From Faecalibaculum rodentium (GTDB taxonomy: Bacteria; Bacillota_I; Bacilli_A; Erysipelotrichales; Erysipelotrichaceae): DNA of 32,000 nt. The stretch spans positions 720,001 through 752,000 of the forward strand of contig NZ_CP011391.1 in NCBI RefSeq assembly GCF_001564455.1. The letters are read 5' to 3'. Below, piece after piece: positions 2,106 to 15,103 of the stretch. The position numbers and the translations under genes were made by a program. Below the pieces are notes generated by a model, which made no database searches, was not told the origin of the DNA, and saw only the letters and a program-made list of their open reading frames with translations. How positions within the stretch are numbered: the first letter of the stretch is position 1; every line of letters begins with the position of its first letter.

Positions 2106-3590
2106 ATGAATGCAAAAGATGTAATCAGCTATATCCATGCAGATATGGATAAAAAATACCGCCTCCAGGATACAACGGAATGCCATGCGGCGATCCTGAA
2201 AGACTGGATGAGGAATGATGCCTTTCTTCCGGATCAGGATGTAGATGTCCTGCGTCTCAAATATGATGACGCCTATATGGGAGATTACGAACACGGATTT
2301 CATGACCTCTGTTTTAGACAGGATATGTTCATCCGATATATCGAGCAGGCAGCCAATGGGGAAGAGGATGTCTACTTTTCCATCAACTCTTTTTGGAACA
2401 CGAAGAGAACAGAAGCTAACATCCGTCATCTGAATGCCTTTGTCATTGACTACGATTATTACAAAATTGCTGAATATGCAGATCTGTCAGCTGCAGAGAT
2501 GTATCAGCAACACATTAGGCCGTCTTTGGTCATAGATCCAACCTTCGTGATCGACTCTGGGCGCGGTCTGTATTGTATATTCTGCATCGATCATGCGCCC
2601 TATGCATGTACTGGTCTTTATAAAGCAATCTACAGCAAGCTCGTAGAGTCACAGGAGCGATTTGGAGCGGATCCTAAGGCCATGCTGACTACACAGGTCA
2701 TAAGAGTACCAGGCAGCATCAACAGCCGCTCAGGGCGGACCGTGGCCGTTCTGGAAGCCAAAGACCAGAGATATACACTCTCTGAGCTGGCACACCAGTT
2801 CTTACCTTATACACGGCAGCAGGTGCGGGACTATAAGCGGGAAAAGGCGAAGGCTGCATTTGGGCAGGCTAAAAAGGCTGCAGCAGGCAAAAGAAAAGCT
2901 AACAGGTACCAGTCGGAGCTGGCAGAGCTGGAATCGGATCTCATTGCCCTGATTTCCATGCGCAATGATGTCGGAATCACGGTTGGATACCGTGAGGTGC
3001 TGCTGTACCTCTACTGGGAGCGTGCAGCAAAAACGAAAATGGAAGAGGAGTCTATCACCAAAAAAATCCTATGGCTGAATAGTCTTTTCACCATGCCTTT
3101 GACAGAGAAAGAGGCACTGAGCAGATGCAGACCGGCACAGAATTACCGATTCTTAACCGCCCGTGAAAAGATGGTGAGAAAACTTGGGGTCACGGATGAG
3201 GAACAGGGAAAACTGAAATTTCTTGTAAACAGGACGCTCAGAGATTCTTTACGACAGGCTAAGTCCAGAAAAAAGGCCCGTATCAAGCACAAGGGCCGTA
3301 CAGCTGCCCAGGAAGCCAGATATAACCGGCGCTGTGCTCTACTTAAGGGGCTTGACCAGGGATTGGATCTGCAGGCTCTCTCACAGTCTCTGGGAGTGAC
3401 CAAAAAGACGTTACGCAATGACTGCAAGTACATCCTTAGCCACCATGCGGAGTTTGCGGCAGTCATCAAGGCAATCAAGCAAACATTGAGGTATACAATC
3501 AAGACACTGCGTACAGAAGAAACACATAGTGACTATACAGATAAAGAATATCCGAAATGTCAACAATTTGATTACTTTATCAGGCGGTAG
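2106..3590 (+). CDS. Primase-polymerase (AEP)-like replication protein with a basic/HTH-like C-terminal region
   Basis: Motif order fits AEP prim-pol proteins: YFSINSF...NAFVIDYDY (DxD), IDSGRGLYCIF (sGxG), IRVPGSINSRSG (RxPGxxN). Confidence 0.6.
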   Translation: MNAKDVISYIHADMDKKYRLQDTTECHAAILKDWMRNDAFLPDQDVDVLRLKYDDAYMGDYEHGFHDLCFRQDMFIRYIEQAANGEEDVYFSINSFWNTKRTEANIRHLNAFVIDYDYYKIAEYADLSAAEMYQQHIRPSLVIDPTFVIDSGRGLYCIFCIDHAPYACTGLYKAIYSKLVESQERFGADPKAMLTTQVIRVPGSINSRSGRTVAVLEAKDQRYTLSELAHQFLPYTRQQVRDYKREKAKAAFGQAKKAAAGKRKANRYQSELAELESDLIALISMRNDVGITVGYREVLLYLYWERAAKTKMEEESITKKILWLNSLFTMPLTEKEALSRCRPAQNYRFLTAREKMVRKLGVTDEEQGKLKFLVNRTLRDSLRQAKSRKKARIKHKGRTAAQEARYNRRCALLKGLDQGLDLQALSQSLGVTKKTLRNDCKYILSHHAEFAAVIKAIKQTLRYTIKTLRTEETHSDYTDKEYPKCQQFDYFIRR

Positions 3591-3707
3591 GTGGTCGGGA
3601 AAAAATATGTCACAGCAATGGTATCTGTGTCTCGAGCGTGGGCCGCCCTGGCGGCAATCAACTACTACCTGTTTAATGCGCGAACGCTTTCGAAGAGGGA
3701 GGAACTT

Positions 3708-4028
3708 ATGAATAAAAAAGAGAATAAAAAAGAACTTCTTGATGAAGTCCGAAGGATCGCAAATTCTTTGGAACCGGCAGCTCTGTGGCTGCTGGACCAC
3801 CCATGCGGTTTTGGTAAAACGAAATGGTCAGATAACAGCTGCACATCAGCTGAAGATATGGCCGCCTGGATGGTATCTGTACCTGATGATCTGAGAGAAG
3901 CGGTTGCTTTTCTGGAACCTGCTGCAAAAAGTCTCCTGGATCCACTGATGATGACCAATGCTCTGATGATTGTGATGGAATCTGGAATCACTGATATCAA
4001 CAGGAAATTGTCTAAATCTGAGAGATAG
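3708..4028 (+). CDS. Hypothetical protein (106 aa)
   Basis: ATG at 3708 lies after gagggagg. The upstream part of the 3591 ORF overlaps the previous gene end and lacks an RBS. Confidence 0.55.
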   Translation: MNKKENKKELLDEVRRIANSLEPAALWLLDHPCGFGKTKWSDNSCTSAEDMAAWMVSVPDDLREAVAFLEPAAKSLLDPLMMTNALMIVMESGITDINRKLSKSER

Positions 4029-4080
4029 AACTATGTGGGAATAATCTGCAATAAAAATTTTGGCCAGAAGGGTTCATGAA

Positions 4081-11073: not shown

Positions 11074-11640
11074 ATGGCCAGAATAGGGTATATCCGTGTT
11101 TCTACTGTAGACCAGAATTTGGACCGTCAAATCGCGTTGATGGAATCGCTTGGGATCGAGAAGATTTTTCAGGATGAGTCCTCTGGCAAGAACATGGACC
11201 GTCCTGGGCTCTCTGCAATGCTGGCTTATATTCGGCCAGGGGATGAAATACACGTTGAATCCTTTTCCCGGTTGTCCAGATCCACGGCTGAACTCTTGCA
11301 GACTGTCAATGATCTCATGGATAGAGGAATCCATCTGATTAGTCACAAGGAAAACCTGGACACGACAACAGCCTCTGGACGACTCATGCTGACAGTATTT
11401 GCTGCCATAGCCCAATTTGAACGGGAAATCACCCTGGAACGTCAGAAAGAAGGAATTGCAGCAGCTAAAGCCAGAGGAGTTTATAAAGGACGGGCCAGGA
11501 AGCCTGATACTCCGGAACTGAAAATGGCCATAAAGGGGTGGGAATCTGGCGAAATATCAGCTGCGGATGCGATTCGCATCAGTGGATTAAGTAAATCTGC
11601 ATTTTATGAGCGTACGAAGGGGTATCTTCGTAAAAAATAA
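11074..11640 (+). CDS. Small serine recombinase (resolvase/invertase family) with C-terminal HTH
   Basis: MARIGYIRVSTVDQNLDRQ...GDEIHVESFSRLSRS...GRLMLTVFAAIAQFEREI...RQKEGIAAAKARGVYKGR is the canonical resolvase catalytic domain. RBS aggaga. Confidence 0.9.
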   Translation: MARIGYIRVSTVDQNLDRQIALMESLGIEKIFQDESSGKNMDRPGLSAMLAYIRPGDEIHVESFSRLSRSTAELLQTVNDLMDRGIHLISHKENLDTTTASGRLMLTVFAAIAQFEREITLERQKEGIAAAKARGVYKGRARKPDTPELKMAIKGWESGEISAADAIRISGLSKSAFYERTKGYLRKK

Positions 11641-11686
11641 CTCATTGGTCCTGTATCATCTTTCGTTAAATAGTTATCATCTTATT

Positions 11687-11708
11687 GCGGCAGAAATGCC
11701 GCTTTTTT
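11687..11708 (+). terminator. Rho-independent terminator
   Basis: gcggca-gaaa-tgccgc followed by tttttt. Confidence 0.65.
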
Positions 11709-12698
11709 ATTTGGAGGAGAATAATTTGAAAAGAATTACAGCTATCTATGTACGTGTTTCTTCGCGTGAGCAGGCGTTACAGGGTTACTCTCTGGATGCG
11801 CAAGAATTGAAGTGTCGTCAGTACGCAGATCTAATGGGATATGATACTGAAAATTTGGTTTTATACAAAGATGATGGGTTCTCAGCAAAATCACTGAATA
11901 GACCTCGAATGCAAGACCTGATCAAGGGAATCAAAGATGGAAAAATTGTCCGGGTCATAGTTTACAAACTGGATCGACTGACAAGAAGCGTTACGGATGT
12001 GTATCAGTTGATGCAGATGTTTATGGATTTTGATTGCGAGCTGAAAGCTATTGTTGATAGTCTGGATCTTACCTCAGCCAATGGTCGGATGTTGGTTGGG
12101 ATGTTGTCTATCATCGCCCAGTGGGAGAGAGAAGTGATTTCCGAAAGGACAAAGGATGGATTGGCAGAAAAGGTCAATCAGGGAAAATATCCTTACGGAG
12201 GCAGAGCGCCCTTTGGATGGGATAAGCAGAAAGATGGGAAACTCTGCATCAATGAAGAACAGGCATCCATCAAGAATGCAGCAGGCGACTGGATTCTTGA
12301 AGGGTACAGTTTGAGCAGGGTTTGCGAGTTGGTCCAGGAACACTATGGCTATAAACCGACATTCGACTCGTTGAAGCGTTACATGGAAGATGAAAAGAAT
12401 ATTGGGATTCTGGTTTATAACGGTGAGCGGAAAGTGGATTTTGTCCCTGCATTGATGGATGACAACAAGTTCCAGGAAGTCCAGTATTATCTGTCATTCC
12501 GCGCTCATCACGCACCGTTCAAAAGCAGATATATTTTCCATTCACTTGTTTATTGCACCAAGTGTGGTAGTCGCTTAGATCAGCGGTCCACGGTCAAAAA
12601 GCAAGGCGCAGAAAGAAAGAGGTATTTCTATTATTCTTGTCCCAATTGCTCGAAAAGGATCAGCCAGAAGATTCTGATCGAACAGACTTTTTTTCATT

Positions 12699-13008
12699 CA
12701 TGGACCTCGCATGCGAGGTCCACCCTTGGATCAGTGAAACTTAGATGGGGCCGTTCCGGCCCCTGTTATATTTATCTTGCCGGAGCTGGTGAGAGCACGA
12801 TACACATTTATTCCATGCGGACTTCTCACACAGTCTTCATGAGATTGTTTTTTTATAAGTCGCCGTTGATCTAAATAGTATCCCTGGGTAGAAATTCATC
12901 ACGAATATTCTGAACATTTTGTATAGGCTGTCGGTTTTTTCTCGACAAGTTCAATGGATGGATCAACTTCCACTCCGGCATTTTTTTGTTTGAGAGGAGT
13001 TTTCGACC
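12699..13008 (+). ncRNA. Non-coding left end of the IS110 element; candidate bridge (guide) RNA locus
   Basis: No plausible ORF. Hairpins at 12702-12721 and 12747-12763. Stem 12789-12794/12824-12829 encloses a loop. Segments 12810-12822 and 12837-12856 echo the IS-end and target sequences. Confidence 0.4.
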
Positions 13009-14430
13009 ATGGCTGTTCGTAACAGAAAACCGGTCTGTGTCGGTTTGGATGTCCATAGAAATAATGTCTGGGCCTGTGTGACCTTCAAAGATCCGGCCAA
13101 AGGGAAAGACGGGCTTGTGTTCGTCACCAAAAAATTTGACTCAAATCATACAGATCTTGCCTCAATGTGTGAATGGATCTATACAACTCTTCCGGATCTG
13201 GAAGACAGAGCGATAGATGTTTATATGGAATCGACCGGAAAGTATTCCACCCCTGTTTTTGATGTCTGTGAGGAAATGGGATTGAAACCCCATATCGTCA
13301 ACCCAAAGCATGTCCGGACCATAGCCGGACAAAAAACGGACCAGAAAGACTGTGCCTGGATCGCTGAACTTGGGGCCAACGGTCTGTTGAGAGAGTCATA
13401 TATCCCGGTCCGGGAGCTTCGGGAATCCAGAAGGCTCTCACGGTCCAGAACTAAACTGGTACAGGAAAGAGGGGATACGATCCGAAGGATCCGGAATATT
13501 CTGACAGAAGCGAATATCCGTATGGATCTTGTTTTTTCCGGGATCGAAGGAGAGTCGGCCCGAAGTGTGATCGAATACCTGCTCACGACAGAGGAACCGG
13601 ATTTGGAGGAAGTGAAAAAGCGGATACGGAAAAGCTGCCGGATCATGCGGTTCTCCACCCATAAAGAGCGCAAAGAAAAAGAAGAAGAACTTCGCAAAGC
13701 ATTCGCTGGTGCAAAGTTCTCCTCCGTCCAGAAATTCGAGCTTGAAAATGCGTATGAAAGAGTTGACCGACTCACTGCGCAAATCCAACGCTACGAACAA
13801 ATGATGACGGAAATTCTCGAACCATTCAAGTCCTATCTTGATTTGCTTGATTCCATCCCGGGAATCTCCGGGCTTTCGGCGATGCAGATACTAAGCGAAA
13901 CAGGAACAGACATGGGACAGTTCAAGAACGAGAAGCACTTCATAAGCTGGTGTGGACTGTGCCCTCAAAGCAATCAGAGCAACAACAAACATAAATCGGT
14001 CAAAATTGGAAAAGGCGGATATTATCTAAAGCCTGTGTTGATTCAATGTGCTCTGAACGCAGTGAAGCACCCATATTTCAAGGGGAAGTATGAGGCTATC
14101 GCAGCCCGACGCGGTAAAAAACGCGCATTGATTGCGATTGCGAGAAAGATGATGGTTCTTGCCTATCATATGTTCCAGACAGGTGAATATTTCCAAGAGA
14201 GAAAGAAACAGATCCCGGCGGTATTGGAAAAAGAACAGAGTGAGCGGGAACAGAGTATGGAGACATCAGCAGAGGCAACAGATGCTCCGGCAATTATCAG
14301 GACCGCAAAAGAGATCGTAGAGATGCTGCAGAATACAGATGATGAGATGAAACACAAGATAGAGCAGTTACTGGCCCAGATAGGAATTGCTCAATGTGAA
14401 TATCAAACTGGAGCGATATCAACGATTTAG
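13009..14430 (+). CDS. IS110 family transposase/recombinase (DEDD RuvC-like N-domain plus Tnp C-domain)
   Basis: N-terminal VCVGLDVHRNN...ESTGKYS...DQKDCAWIAE. C-terminal LLDSIPGISGLSAMQILSETGTDMGQFKNEKHFISWCGLCPQSNQS...KGG..LK is the IS116/IS110/IS902 signature. RBS gagaggag. Confidence 0.9.
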   Translation: MAVRNRKPVCVGLDVHRNNVWACVTFKDPAKGKDGLVFVTKKFDSNHTDLASMCEWIYTTLPDLEDRAIDVYMESTGKYSTPVFDVCEEMGLKPHIVNPKHVRTIAGQKTDQKDCAWIAELGANGLLRESYIPVRELRESRRLSRSRTKLVQERGDTIRRIRNILTEANIRMDLVFSGIEGESARSVIEYLLTTEEPDLEEVKKRIRKSCRIMRFSTHKERKEKEEELRKAFAGAKFSSVQKFELENAYERVDRLTAQIQRYEQMMTEILEPFKSYLDLLDSIPGISGLSAMQILSETGTDMGQFKNEKHFISWCGLCPQSNQSNNKHKSVKIGKGGYYLKPVLIQCALNAVKHPYFKGKYEAIAARRGKKRALIAIARKMMVLAYHMFQTGEYFQERKKQIPAVLEKEQSEREQSMETSAEATDAPAIIRTAKEIVEMLQNTDDEMKHKIEQLLAQIGIAQCEYQTGAISTI

Positions 14431-15103
14431 ACAATATGTAAGCATTCAGAAAATTTAAAAAACCTCCCGAGAGGAGGCCTTTTAATCGTGGCTTTCATTT
14501 TATGAGAGTTTCACATTTTGATGTAGCCAAGGCACTTGCCGACTGGCGACAGACTGAGCGGATGAAGAGAGTCGAAATCAGTCTGAACGCTATAAATAAA
14601 AAAATCCAAGATTTGGAGCAGGCGTATATGGATGATGAATTTGATGCAAAGTCATATATGAAAGCCAGACAGCCACTGGATAAGAATGTGGAGGATCTGG
14701 AGAAGCAGATAAGGATCTTTGATGTAAAAGACATAGATGCATTTTATGCTTTGGACTATAAAGACCAGTATTTGATTATGGATCTGGTAGTTTCCAAGGT
14801 CGAAGTTGATTTGGAAAAGAAGAGAGTCGTCACTCTTAAATTCAAAAGCAACGATTAGAGCTGCGTTACATAAGCAGCTTATTTGAATCACTGAGTAAAA
14901 ATGGATAAATTTGATGGGTTTATTTCGTTGTGAACCCGTTAATCGTGTATAATGAAGTCATCACAAAGAAATAAAAAAATCCCTCCATCTTTTGGCCGAG
15001 ATGAGGGAACCGATGATAGCAGAAGATGCTGCTTCATGTCTTTAGTATAACATCAAAACTCGAATTCTCAAGATGTTAATCTGAAAAAGTGATAGAAATT
15101 ATC

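What the first reader, a model, noticed from the sequence alone, without database searches (positions are those of the whole stretch)
12699..13008. 310-nt non-coding left end of the IS110 element: bridge-RNA candidate with segments echoing the target and the IS end
IS110-group elements are known to encode a structured guide (bridge) RNA in the long non-coding end 5' of the recombinase gene. That RNA has two internal loops that base-pair with the target DNA and with the donor (IS end) DNA.

This left end has no credible ORF and contains:
- A perfect hairpin, ggacctcgcatgcgaggtcc (12702-12721).
- A second hairpin, ggggccg-ttc-cggcccc (12747-12763).
- A stem gtgaga/tctcac (12789-12794 with 12824-12829) enclosing a 29-nt loop.

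The loop contains attccatgcggac (12810-12822), which resembles the left junction cattcatggacc (12695-12706). Just downstream, tcatgagattgtttttttat (12837-12856) echoes both halves of the reconstructed target tttttttcatt/ttatgagag. These matches are short and were found by eye, so they are suggestive only. Because the exact insertion target is recoverable here (see the recombinase finding), this copy gives a matched guide/target pair.
Basis: partly seen in the sequence, partly recalled or inferred. Interest (0 to 1): 0.8.

Follow-up and report, generated by a model that had tools for sequence, protein, structure and literature searches.

The report
IS110 guide RNA with poly-U target guide

Summary
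The general idea is supported and most details are wrong.

**Boundaries and target**
- An uninterrupted copy of the disrupted serine-recombinase gene exists (L090). It shows that the IS spans 12695-14519 (1825 bp), not ~12699-14500.
- The true target is GAACAGAC-TTTTTTT-GATGTAGCC.
- Seven independent copies of the same IS all sit after C+T7, and their right flanks are unrelated.

**The RNA**
- Thirteen left-end sequences from relatives were compared (12 in the trimmed RNA alignment), plus about 54 distant Clostridia IS110 elements.
- Together they define a ~200-nt RNA at about 12778-12980. It lies downstream of a terminator-like hairpin (12747-63) and a conserved extended -10 box (12764-72).
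- A covarying stem P1 closes the RNA. Inside it are two nested three-way junctions.

**Guides found**
- Two single-stranded blocks have the same sequence as the DNA top strand:
  - UUUUUUU (12848-54) equals the left target plus core.
  - ACAUUUU (12914-20) equals the IS right end ACATTTT (14513-19).
- In relatives both blocks change together with their own flank or right end.

**Not found or not supported**
- No right-hand guides (complementary to the core plus right target or right donor) were found.

Verdict: a new variant of a known kind, of moderate interest.

The parts
12688..12694 (+). Target T7 run, read as left target (5 nt) plus TT core. It was retained at the left junction.
   Evidence: The empty site in L090 reads GAC-TTTTTTT-GATG. 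All 7 copies of this IS have C+T7 here.
12695..14519 (+). The whole IS110-group element, 1825 bp. The left non-coding end is 314 nt and the right end is 89 nt after the stop codon.
   Evidence: Comparison of 7 insertion sites with the empty site; Pfam domains.
12695..12703 (+). Right donor (RD) CATTCATGG, the first bases of the IS.
   Evidence: Conserved start of the left end in relatives.
12702..12721 (+). Terminal inverted repeat (hairpin 1) in the donor DNA. It lies outside the predicted RNA.
   Evidence: A perfect palindrome in the window. In relatives the sequence differs but the two arms stay complementary.
12747..12763 (+). Terminator-like hairpin 2 with a T-rich tail. It probably insulates the element from read-in transcription.
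   Evidence: Terminator scan. Conserved in position in relatives.
12764..12772 (+). Predicted extended -10 promoter box TGTTATATT. No -35 box was found.
   Evidence: Most relatives carry TGnTAnAAT or a similar box at the same place, 5-8 nt before stem P1. The promoter scan found no full sigma-70 site. This is an inference.
12778..12980 (+). Predicted bridge-type guide RNA, about 200 nt.
   Evidence: Bounded by closing stem P1, which starts at the expected transcription start. Covariance-model hit at 12846-12969 (E 3e-26). G-U pairs fix the strand.
12778..12785 (+). P1 5' strand UGCCGGAG. It pairs with 12973-12980 (CUCCGGCA).
   Evidence: Every relative has a different but complementary pair of strands here. 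Mean helix score is 8.5 for own pairs against 5.5 for mismatched pairs.
12973..12980 (+). P1 3' strand. It is followed by a U7 tract (12981-87) that may act as a leaky terminator tail ahead of the transposase ribosome-binding site (12992-99).
   Evidence: A U-rich tract follows P1 in relatives. The terminator role is an inference.
12794..12799 (+). Conserved single-stranded motif AGCACG. Function unknown.
   Evidence: Nearly invariant in 12 relatives and in the distant group.
12800..12847 (+). Variable imperfect stem-loop P2/P3.
   Evidence: Its length varies from about 22 to 61 nt among relatives. No covariation with RD.
12848..12854 (+). Left target guide (LTG) UUUUUUU. It has the same sequence as the top strand of LT+core, so it would pair with the bottom strand.
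   Evidence: Conserved block UG-U7-AUAAG. L141/142 have UGUUUU and flanks TGTTTT/TGGTTT. In 54 distant elements the homologous 7-mer equals the left flank (same = 0.96-1.00).
12865..12871 (+). P(a) 5' strand GUUGAUC. It pairs with 12961-12967 and is extended by P4 (12879-82 with 12957-60).
   Evidence: 7 of its 8 pairs show compensatory changes. P4 comes from constrained folds.
12889..12912 (+). Hairpin P5.
12914..12920 (+). Left donor guide (LDG) ACAUUUU. It has the same sequence as the IS right end plus core.
   Evidence: It matches 14513-19 exactly, including the T-run length. Covarying cases: CAUAUUUU with CATATTT, ACAAUU with CACAATT, ACAUUU-A with CACATTT|G. In the distant group same = 1.00 on the diagonal.
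12927..12949 (+). Hairpin P6, the inner hairpin of the donor module.
   Evidence: 5 of its 6 pairs show compensatory changes.
13009..14430 (+). IS110-family DEDD recombinase gene, 473 aa.
   Evidence: PF01548 3.8e-23 and PF02371 5.5e-20.
14513..14519 (+). Left donor (LD) plus core, ACATT-TT, the last bases of the IS.

Best explanation
**What it is.** The left end of this 1825-bp IS110-group element encodes a ~200-nt guide RNA at about 12778-12980 on the + strand. I infer that it is transcribed from an internal extended -10 promoter (12764-72). That promoter sits just downstream of a terminator-like hairpin that would block read-in transcription.

**Fold.** The RNA is closed by stem P1 and contains two nested three-way junctions. 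Each junction presents one 7-nt single strand with the same sequence as the DNA top strand:
[quoted passage not shown] **Mechanism.** By holding a T7 tract and the joined IS ends together for the DEDD recombinase, the RNA would direct insertion at the 3' end of C-T7 tracts. Many of these tracts are the tails of intrinsic terminators. This is the bridge-RNA principle.

**Shown:**
- the element boundaries and the target;
- the conserved structure;
- covariation of the two left-hand guides with the flank and the IS end.

**Inferred:**
- the promoter and the RNA ends;
- the pairing itself;
- the position of the core;
- how the right halves (RT, RD) are recognised. No right-hand guides were found, so they may be read by the protein, by DNA hairpins, or not at all.
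For: **Boundaries and target**
- P0121/L090 is an intact serine recombinase with ...EQTFFDVAKAL... and the DNA GAC-T7-GATG.
- Seven copies of the IS lie in unrelated contexts. All share C+T7 | CATTCATGG ... CACATTT(T).
- The T count fits. Left T7 plus right T4 minus empty-site T7 leaves T4 in the joined ends, which equals the U4 of the LDG.

**Structure**
- Model R1 hits the window at 12846-12969 (131 bits). It also hits relatives and four distant elements at the same place upstream of the transposase gene.
- 94.1% of cells are paired against 76% in shuffles and 23-40% when partners are slid.
- 14 of 18 pairs show compensatory changes.
- P1 covaries.
- Frequent G-U pairs fit only the + strand.

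**Guides**
- The blocks UG-U7-AUAAG and UCUG-N-ACAUUUU are conserved.
- LDG and LD change together in the P0005/P0003, P0022 and P0031 elements.
- LTG and LT change together in L141/L142.
- In 54 distant elements the homologous 7-mers equal the left flank and the right end.
  - MI reaches 1.6, and identity on the diagonal is 0.96-1.00.
  - With an independently defined anchor, the last 4 guide positions all match in 16 of 26 own pairs against 23 of 632 cross pairs.

**Precedent**
- IS110 bridge RNAs pair the bottom strand of LT and LD with same-sense guides (PMC11208160).
Against: - There is no expression or binding data.
- A U7/T7 match in a single AT-rich sequence is weak on its own. The left end holds another T7 at 12981-87.
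- Within the close subfamily the target is nearly always T7, so LTG covariation there rests on one small lineage (L141/142). The rest comes from homology to the distant group.
- No RNA column is complementary to the core, and none covaries with RT or RD. Two of the four guides that define a classical bridge RNA are therefore missing.
- rU:dA hybrids are intrinsically weak.
- The promoter is only a conserved -10-like box. No -35 was found, and no promoter spanning the RE-LE junction as in IS621.
- Three of the seven sites have only T3 at the right junction. This needs an extra assumption, either a TC core in the target or T-run slippage.
- Rfam gave no hit.
Confidence: 0.72

Rival explanations
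1. It is a canonical four-guide bridge RNA like that of IS621. Right-target and right-donor guides exist, but I failed to recognise them. Possible reasons are that they are short, pair discontiguously, use G-T wobbles, or lie in poorly aligned variable parts.
For: - IS621 uses all four guides, and its RDG pairs discontiguously (PMC11208160).
- CAAUGGAUGGA (12953-63) can pair with core+RD TTCATTCATGG at 10 of 11 positions if G-T wobbles are allowed. This is my own reading.
- In the distant group the 5' strand of the target module carries GGAGGAG, which is complementary to the CCTCC found in nearly all right flanks. One element (L026) has CCUGAG opposite CTCAGG.
Against: - GGAUGAAUC is already explained by RNA helices P4 and P(a), which covary.
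- Elements with a different RD (L138, L100, L134, L141) do not change it accordingly.
- No column is complementary to the core across 5 core types in 54 elements.
- MI with RT is at most 0.37.
- The register of GGAGG against CCTCC varies from site to site.
Confidence: 0.3
2. In it the RNA starts at the IS end and includes hairpins 12702-21 and 12747-63. The 29-nt loop closed by gtgaga/tctcac is a guide loop for the donor, and tcatgagattgttttttt reads the target tttttttcatt/ttatgagag.
For: - The strings and hairpins exist.
- The stem appears in the single-sequence minimum-energy fold.
- IS621 transcribes its RNA from a promoter that spans the joined ends (PMC11208160).
Against: - The target is wrong.
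- ttatgagag is inside the IS in all 7 copies.
- The stem is not conserved.
- The loop-to-RD resemblance does not covary.
- Hairpin 2 plus its T tract would terminate a transcript coming from the IS end.
- The covarying closing stem P1 begins downstream of both hairpins.
Confidence: 0.04
3. The conserved left-end structure is a cis-regulatory leader of the transposase mRNA, controlling translation or stability, and is not a DNA guide. The matches to the flank and to the IS end would then be by-products.
For: - The RNA lies directly upstream of the ribosome-binding site and may be co-transcribed with the transposase gene.
- IS110 small RNAs were earlier proposed to modulate recombinase expression (ISPpu9, cited in PMC11208160).
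Against: A leader gives no reason for two 7-nt single strands to track, base by base, the left flank and the right end across more than 50 elements with about 19 different target words.
Confidence: 0.08

Closest known systems
IS621 bridge RNA (IS110 group; Durrant et al. 2024, PMC11208160; Hiraizumi et al. 2024, PMC11208158)
   Same: - The RNA is encoded in the long left non-coding end, upstream of and on the same strand as a DEDD/IS110 recombinase gene.
- It is structured and about 180-200 nt long.
- One module carries a same-sense guide for left target plus core. The other carries a same-sense guide for left donor plus core.
- Both guides end in a shared dinucleotide.
   Different: - The modules are nested inside a closing stem instead of being two tandem stem-loops after a 5' hairpin.
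- The guides lie in three-way-junction strands, 3' of an extra hairpin, rather than in simple internal loops.
- The guides are 7 nt long rather than 8-9.
- No right-hand guides or core-complementary positions were found.
- The predicted promoter is internal and sits behind a terminator, rather than being rebuilt at the RE-LE junction.
- The recombinase is 473 aa. The IS621 figure of 326 aa is from my own memory.
- The target is a T7 tract rather than a REP sequence.
ISPpu10 and its target stem-loop (bioRxiv 10.64898/2026.03.19.712850)
   Same: It is an IS110 element whose guide-matched target is immediately preceded by a GC-rich stem-loop. Most sites of the present IS likewise have a GC hairpin directly 5' of the T7.
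   Different: - Here the hairpins differ in sequence from site to site and look like ordinary intrinsic terminators.
- One site (the window) has no hairpin.
- The frequency of a hairpin before the T run (9 of 18 by a strict rule) is not clearly above that for all T>=6 runs in the window (15 of 42).
- A structural requirement is therefore not shown.
IS1111-group bridge/seekRNAs (Durrant 2024; Siddiquee et al. 2024 as cited in 10.1101/2025.10.25.684509)
   Same: Their donor-binding nucleotides are described as lying in a multi-loop rather than in a simple internal loop (PMC11208160).
   Different: - Those RNAs are in the right end, and the elements have long sub-terminal inverted repeats.
- Here the RNA is in the left end, and the right end is short (89 nt).
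The IS110 element CazIS110-1 of Caloranaerobacter (10.1101/2025.10.25.684509) was not compared with them here.
   Same: - They have the same RNA architecture: a -10 box, P1, ACAGAGCACGG, a variable hairpin, a 7-nt guide followed by AUAUG/AUAAG, P(a), and a second 7-nt guide.
- Model R1 detects four of them.
   Different: - Their left guide reads CAT+4 nt and their right flanks carry CCTCC. They therefore insert antisense between a Shine-Dalgarno site and a start codon.
- The window's subfamily has switched to T7 tracts.

Membership tests
IS110 family insertion sequence (IS110 group) | DEDD (RuvC-like) N-terminal domain plus Transposase_20 C-terminal domain | tested here: met
   PF01548 3.8e-23 and PF02371 5.5e-20.
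IS110 family insertion sequence (IS110 group) | Long left non-coding end, short right end, and no long terminal inverted repeats or target duplication beyond a short shared core | tested here: met
   LE is 314 nt and RE is 89 nt. Only a T run is shared at the two junctions, and the empty site is restored by removing 1825 bp.
IS110 bridge RNA | Non-coding RNA encoded in the LE on the recombinase strand, with a conserved, covarying secondary structure | tested here: met
   94.1% of cells are paired and 14 of 18 pairs are compensatory, with clear slide controls. P1 covaries. G-U pairs fix the strand.
IS110 bridge RNA | Left target guide: an unpaired segment identical to the top strand of LT+core that covaries with insertion sites | tested here: met
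   U7 at 12848-54 against T7 in 7 sites and in the empty site. Covariation in L141/142 and in 54 distant homologues.
IS110 bridge RNA | Left donor guide: an unpaired segment identical to the top strand of LD+core | tested here: met
   ACAUUUU at 12914-20 equals 14513-19. Covaries in P0005/P0003, P0022, P0031 and the distant group.
IS110 bridge RNA | Right target guide complementary to the top strand of core+RT | tested here: inconclusive
   The right flanks of the 6 copies whose right flank is held share no motif. MI with RT is at most 0.37, and no column is complementary to the core. Only a GGAGG/CCTCC match in variable register is seen in the distant group.
IS110 bridge RNA | Right donor guide complementary to the top strand of core+RD | tested here: inconclusive
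   The candidate GGAUG(G/A)A is explained by helices P4 and P(a) and does not follow variant RDs. No complementary diagonal appears in the MI analysis.
IS110 bridge RNA | [quoted passage not shown] | tested here: not met
   The consensus is P1 enclosing two nested three-way junctions. Each L guide lies between an extra hairpin (P2/3 or P5) and the next helix.
IS110 bridge RNA | Sigma-70 promoter rebuilt across the RE-LE junction of the circular form | tested here: inconclusive
   No full promoter was found in the linear left end. By eye, the joined ends give TTCACA but no -10 at 17 bp. Instead a conserved extended -10 lies at 12764-72, behind a terminator-like hairpin.
IS110 bridge RNA | Match to a curated covariance model | not testable with these tools
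   Rfam 15 gave nothing for the left end at the gathering threshold. At E<=10 it gave only chance-level hits (mir-8196 and Esr41, E 2-3.6). I saw no evidence that Rfam contains a bridge-RNA family.
IS110 bridge RNA | The RNA is expressed, binds the recombinase and is required for recombination | not testable with these tools
   No transcriptome or biochemical data are available here.

The most novel reading that the evidence does not exclude
This Firmicutes clade of IS110 elements may use a 'left-half-only' bridge RNA. Two 7-nt same-sense guides, displayed in nested three-way junctions, would read only the bottom strands of the left target and the left donor. The right halves would not be read by complementary guides of the classical kind. 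Instead they might be defined by DNA hairpins (the terminator stem on the target side and hairpin 1 on the donor side) or by the protein. A third same-sense RNA segment matching the DNA just after hairpin 1 may also contribute. In the window's subfamily the target guide has become poly-U, which would make T tracts of intrinsic terminators a generic, low-cost landing site.
Probability: 0.25. Interest if true: 0.65.

Novelty: new variant of a known kind. Interest (0 to 1): 0.48.

Why it matters
**What the locus offers**
- An IS110 element for which the target, the donor ends and an empty site are all known at base resolution.
- A comparative set that pins down two guide segments.

**What would be informative if the architecture holds**
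- It would show how far natural bridge RNAs can depart from the IS621 design. The departures here are nested junctions, an own promoter behind an insulating terminator, 7-nt guides and no detectable right-hand guides.
- That bears on the minimal requirements for RNA-guided recombination. It also connects to recent reports of half-site ('half-match') activity in IS621.

**Host biology**
- A poly-U guide aimed at T tracts after terminators would be a simple way for an IS to spread while rarely breaking genes.
- In this window, however, it did break a gene: a large serine recombinase.

**Limits**
- It remains a member of a well-studied class, and nothing here has been tested experimentally.

Tried and rejected
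1. **Rfam scans.** Neither the gathering nor the E-value threshold gave a meaningful hit in the left end.
2. **Extra copies in the window.** None were found.
3. **Plasmid and phage collections.** No match to the IS. A viral contigs pattern scan gave 0 hits.
4. **CACATTT at 12803-09 as the left donor guide.** This was my first idea. I rejected it because relatives do not keep it, whereas the block at 12914-20 is conserved and covaries.
5. **GGAUGGAUC (12956-64) as the right donor guide.** Rejected. It forms helices P4 and P(a), and it fails to follow variant left ends; in L138 it runs opposite to expectation.
Own-versus-cross alignment scores show no diagonal.
7. **The 5' strand as a right target guide.** The 6 known right flanks match it only in shifting registers, so I treat the matches as chance.
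8. **The junction strands UUCAAU (12950-55) and UUCCA (12968-72) as right guides by position.** They show no complementarity to core+RD or core+RT.
9. **A hairpin requirement at the target.** The excess over background T runs is not significant under my simple rule.
10. **A junction promoter as in IS621.** None was recognisable.
11. **L001 and L002** could not be used for the left end because of runs of N.

Full report
**1. What is at the coordinates**

- A perfect 20-nt palindrome lies at 12702-21.
- A 7-bp hairpin with a 3-nt loop lies at 12747-63, followed by a T-rich tail.
- gtgaga (12789-94) can pair with tctcac (12824-29).
- The two 'echo' strings are at 12810-22 and 12837-56.

The downstream gene (13009-14430, 473 aa) carries the two Pfam domains of IS110-family recombinases. 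Rfam has no match in the left end. Single-sequence folding is only modestly better than shuffles: z is -2.5 for 12699-13008 and -1.8 for the 203-nt RNA.

**2. Boundaries and target: the key correction**

The identical transposase occurs on other contigs, and a DNA pattern scan found two more copies. Counting the window, that makes seven copies in unrelated contexts.
- All seven share C-TTTTTTT-CATTCATGG... on the left.
- All seven share ...GGCTTTCATTTTATGAGAGTTTCACATTT(T) on the right, after which the sequences diverge.

I then joined the two halves of the interrupted serine recombinase both ways and searched for an intact protein.
- P0121 (435 aa, 99% identical) reads ...KILIEQTFFDVAKALADW....
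- Its DNA (L090) reads GATCGAACAGAC-TTTTTTT-GATGTAGCC.
- The IS is therefore 12695-14519 (1825 bp), and it inserted at the 3' end of a T7 run.
- The T counts are 7 at the left junction, 4 at the right junction and 7 in the empty site. The joined IS ends must therefore carry T4: CACA-TTTT-CATTCATGG.

**3. Relatives**

Protein searches found about 30 relatives at 40-84% identity, mostly from gut metagenomes, with Faecalibaculum and Allobaculum among the named sources. I retrieved eight related elements with flanks and one more from the pattern scan (L130).
- All start with C(A/G)T(T/C)CAT- or a variant, followed by an inverted repeat whose sequence differs but whose arms stay complementary.
- All end in ...CACATTT(T) or a variant.
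- Almost all sit after T6-7.

A genome scan also returned 76 loci at about 37% identity in Clostridia and Bacilli.

**4. The RNA**

Aligning 13 left ends shows the following order:
- terminal hairpin 1;
- a motif CCACCC(T/A)TGG;
- terminator-like hairpin 2 with a T tail;
- a conserved TGnTAnAAT-like box (12764-72 in the window);
- 5-8 nt later, a segment complementary to a segment about 190 nt downstream.

This closing stem P1 (12778-85 with 12973-80) has a different sequence in every relative. Mean helix score is 8.5 for own pairs against 5.5 for mismatched pairs (sd 1.1). Eight of 12 own pairs score at least 8, against 5 of 130 mismatched pairs.

Inside P1, RNAalifold and constrained folds give:
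- a variable stem-loop P2/P3 (12800-47);
- a long-range stem P(a) (12865-71 with 12961-67), extended by P4;
- hairpins P5 (12889-12912) and P6 (12927-49).

A covariance model of the 3' domain (R1) scores 131 bits in the window. It also finds the same region upstream of the transposase gene in all relatives and in four distant elements. On the model alignment:
- 94.1% of cells are standard pairs, against 76.3% in shuffles and 23-40% with slid partners;
- 14 of 18 pairs have changes on both sides;
- many pairs are G-U, which fits only the + strand.

The caveat is that this alignment is fitted to the model and the sequences are related. The slide control and the sheer number of compensatory types argue that the helices are real.

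**5. Guides**

Two blocks are single-stranded and nearly invariant in the subfamily: UG-UUUUUUU-AUAAG (12846-59) and UCUG-N-ACAUUUU-GUAUAG (12909-26).

*The first block* equals LT+core (T7). Evidence that it tracks the target:
- L141/L142 have UGUUUU, and their flanks read TGTTTT and TGGTTT.
- In the distant group, the 7-mer at the homologous place (just 5' of AUAUG/AUAAG) equals the left flank in nearly every locus. Examples are CATAATT, CATAAAT, CATATTT, CATGTTT, CATAGTT and CATTATA.
- Column-by-column, four consecutive RNA columns match four consecutive flank positions. Identity is 0.96-1.00 and MI reaches 1.6.
- I repeated the test with an anchor defined from the IS end instead of from the guide. 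All four variable positions then match in 16 of 26 own pairs against 23 of 632 cross pairs. The remaining misses are mostly anchoring errors.

*The second block* equals the last 7 nt of the IS (14513-19), including the length of the T run. It changes with the right end:

| Elements | RNA block | IS right end |
|---|---|---|
| P0005/P0003 | CAUAUUUU | CTCATATTT |
| P0022 | ACAAUU-A | CACAATT followed by G |
| P0031 | ACAUUU-A | CACATTT followed by G |
| distant group | ACUCUU, ACACUU, ACACUAA, ACGCUAA, AGAUUUA, AUACUU, AACCUUA | each with its own end |

Both guides have the sense of the top strand. This is how the LTG and LDG of IS621 are described (PMC11208160). Because each guide ends where the conserved AUA(A/U)G or GUAUAG begins, I place the core at the last two T of the run. 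That gives LT = TTTTT, LD = ACATT and RD = CATTCATGG.

This placement fits the window exactly. Three other sites have only T3 followed by C at the right junction. Those would need a TC core in the target or T-run slippage, which I could not test.

**6. What I could not find**

A classical bridge RNA also has right-hand guides complementary to core+RT and core+RD.
- The right flanks of the 6 copies whose right flank is held share nothing.
- In 54 distant elements with five different cores, no RNA column is complementary to either core position. RT shows no covariation (MI at most 0.37), and RD gives no clean diagonal.
- GGAUGGAUC can be drawn against TTCATTCATGG, but it is accounted for by helices P4 and P(a). 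It also does not follow variant left ends.
- The gtgaga/tctcac stem has no counterpart in most relatives.

Right-half recognition therefore remains open.

One further correspondence is unexplained. The RNA segment between P4 and P5 resembles, in the same sense, the DNA motif that follows hairpin 1.
- This is strong in the distant group, with up to 12 identical nt. Mean score is 8.9 for own pairs against 4.4 across groups.
- It is weak in the window copy.

**7. Target preference**

Most sites look like intrinsic terminators: a GC hairpin followed by T7. By a simple rule, though, a hairpin precedes 9 of 18 sites against 15 of 42 for all T>=6 runs in the window. A structural requirement such as that reported for ISPpu10 (10.64898/2026.03.19.712850) is therefore not shown. 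A C precedes the T run in 17 of 18 sites, which the guide does not explain, since the RNA has G at that position.

**8. Comparison and verdict**

The element works on the bridge-RNA principle, and the left-hand half of the definition is met. It departs from the IS621 type in four ways:
- its topology is nested three-way junctions with extra hairpins;
- its predicted promoter is internal and sits behind a terminator;
- its guides are 7 nt long;
- right-hand guides are apparently absent.

Durrant et al. already reported that IS110 bridge RNAs are structurally diverse and predicted one in 85.7% of IS110-group elements. This is therefore a variant within a known class, not a new class.

The value lies in the exact target/donor/empty-site triple, the poly-U guide aimed at T tracts, and the testable possibility of left-half-only guidance.

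Noticed in passing
L083 right flank; L123 right flank; L101 (about 2630-4041) and L102 (1-1084): In three independent sites the sequence right after the IS and T run is (T)GTGTGCC(C/G)GGCATGG. In L101 the ORF that follows (3171-4041) has RVT_1/GIIM domains; L102 has such an ORF upstream of its IS copy (1-1084). This looks like the 5' end of a group II intron sitting just after a terminator T tract. If so, two different mobile elements use the same kind of landing site.
   Followed up: partly
L107 about 375-459 and about 2335-2420: About 85 nt of flank (TCACCTGAATACGCC...GCACGTTTCTTTTTT) is present on both sides of the IS copy. The upstream copy is preceded by GGTTTCAC. This may be a remnant of a tandem or rearranged insertion.
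   Followed up: no
L102 about 1160-1175 and about 3030-3040: One copy of the P0008 element sits at ...CTACTCGA-TT|CATTCAT with right junction CACATTT|GATTGAACC. There is no T run here, so this is an apparent off-target insertion that shares at most one or two T with the guide.
   Followed up: partly
L004-L079 (distant IS110 group): These elements insert antisense between a Shine-Dalgarno site and a start codon. The left flank is CAT+4 nt (read by the guide), and the right flank carries CCTCC at 1-4 nt. In one subgroup the IS left end itself starts with ACCTCC, which would supply a replacement Shine-Dalgarno site for the displaced start codon.
   Followed up: partly
window 14478-14492, and the same place in relatives' right ends: A conserved right-end motif TTTT(C/G)GTCGTG(C/G) follows the transposase terminator hairpin (14463-77). 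In the window it reads TTTTAATCGTGG. Its reverse complement resembles the RNA's invariant AGCACGA motif (12794-12800). The meaning is unknown.
   Followed up: no
window 12877-12888 versus 12720-12729; L027-type loci: There is a same-sense resemblance between an RNA junction strand and the DNA motif just after terminal hairpin 1. It is strong in the distant group (GCACAAA[C/T]AAGT in both) and weak in the window copy. The RNA would pair with the bottom strand about 25-35 nt inside the left end.
   Followed up: partly
left junctions of 18 sites (for example window 12687): The base before the T run is C in 17 of 18 insertion sites. The RNA has G at the corresponding position, so guide pairing does not explain it.
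   Followed up: partly
right junctions of L081, L083, L114: Only three T follow CACA, and then C, instead of four T. This fits targets of T6C with a mismatched core resolved in favour of the bottom strand. It also fits T-run slippage.
   Followed up: no
L001 157-172; L002 about 2365-3000: Runs of N replace part of the left end in two genome-collection loci, so they could not be used. In L001 the sequence upstream of the N run is unrelated to the left end, which suggests a chimeric or scaffolded contig.
   Followed up: no
window 11074-11640, 11606-12694 plus 14520-14858, and 1001-1237: The IS interrupts a 435-aa large serine recombinase after codon ...TFF. A small resolvase gene lies immediately upstream, and the same gene pair is intact in L090. 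Three tRNA genes lie at 1001-1237.
   Followed up: partly
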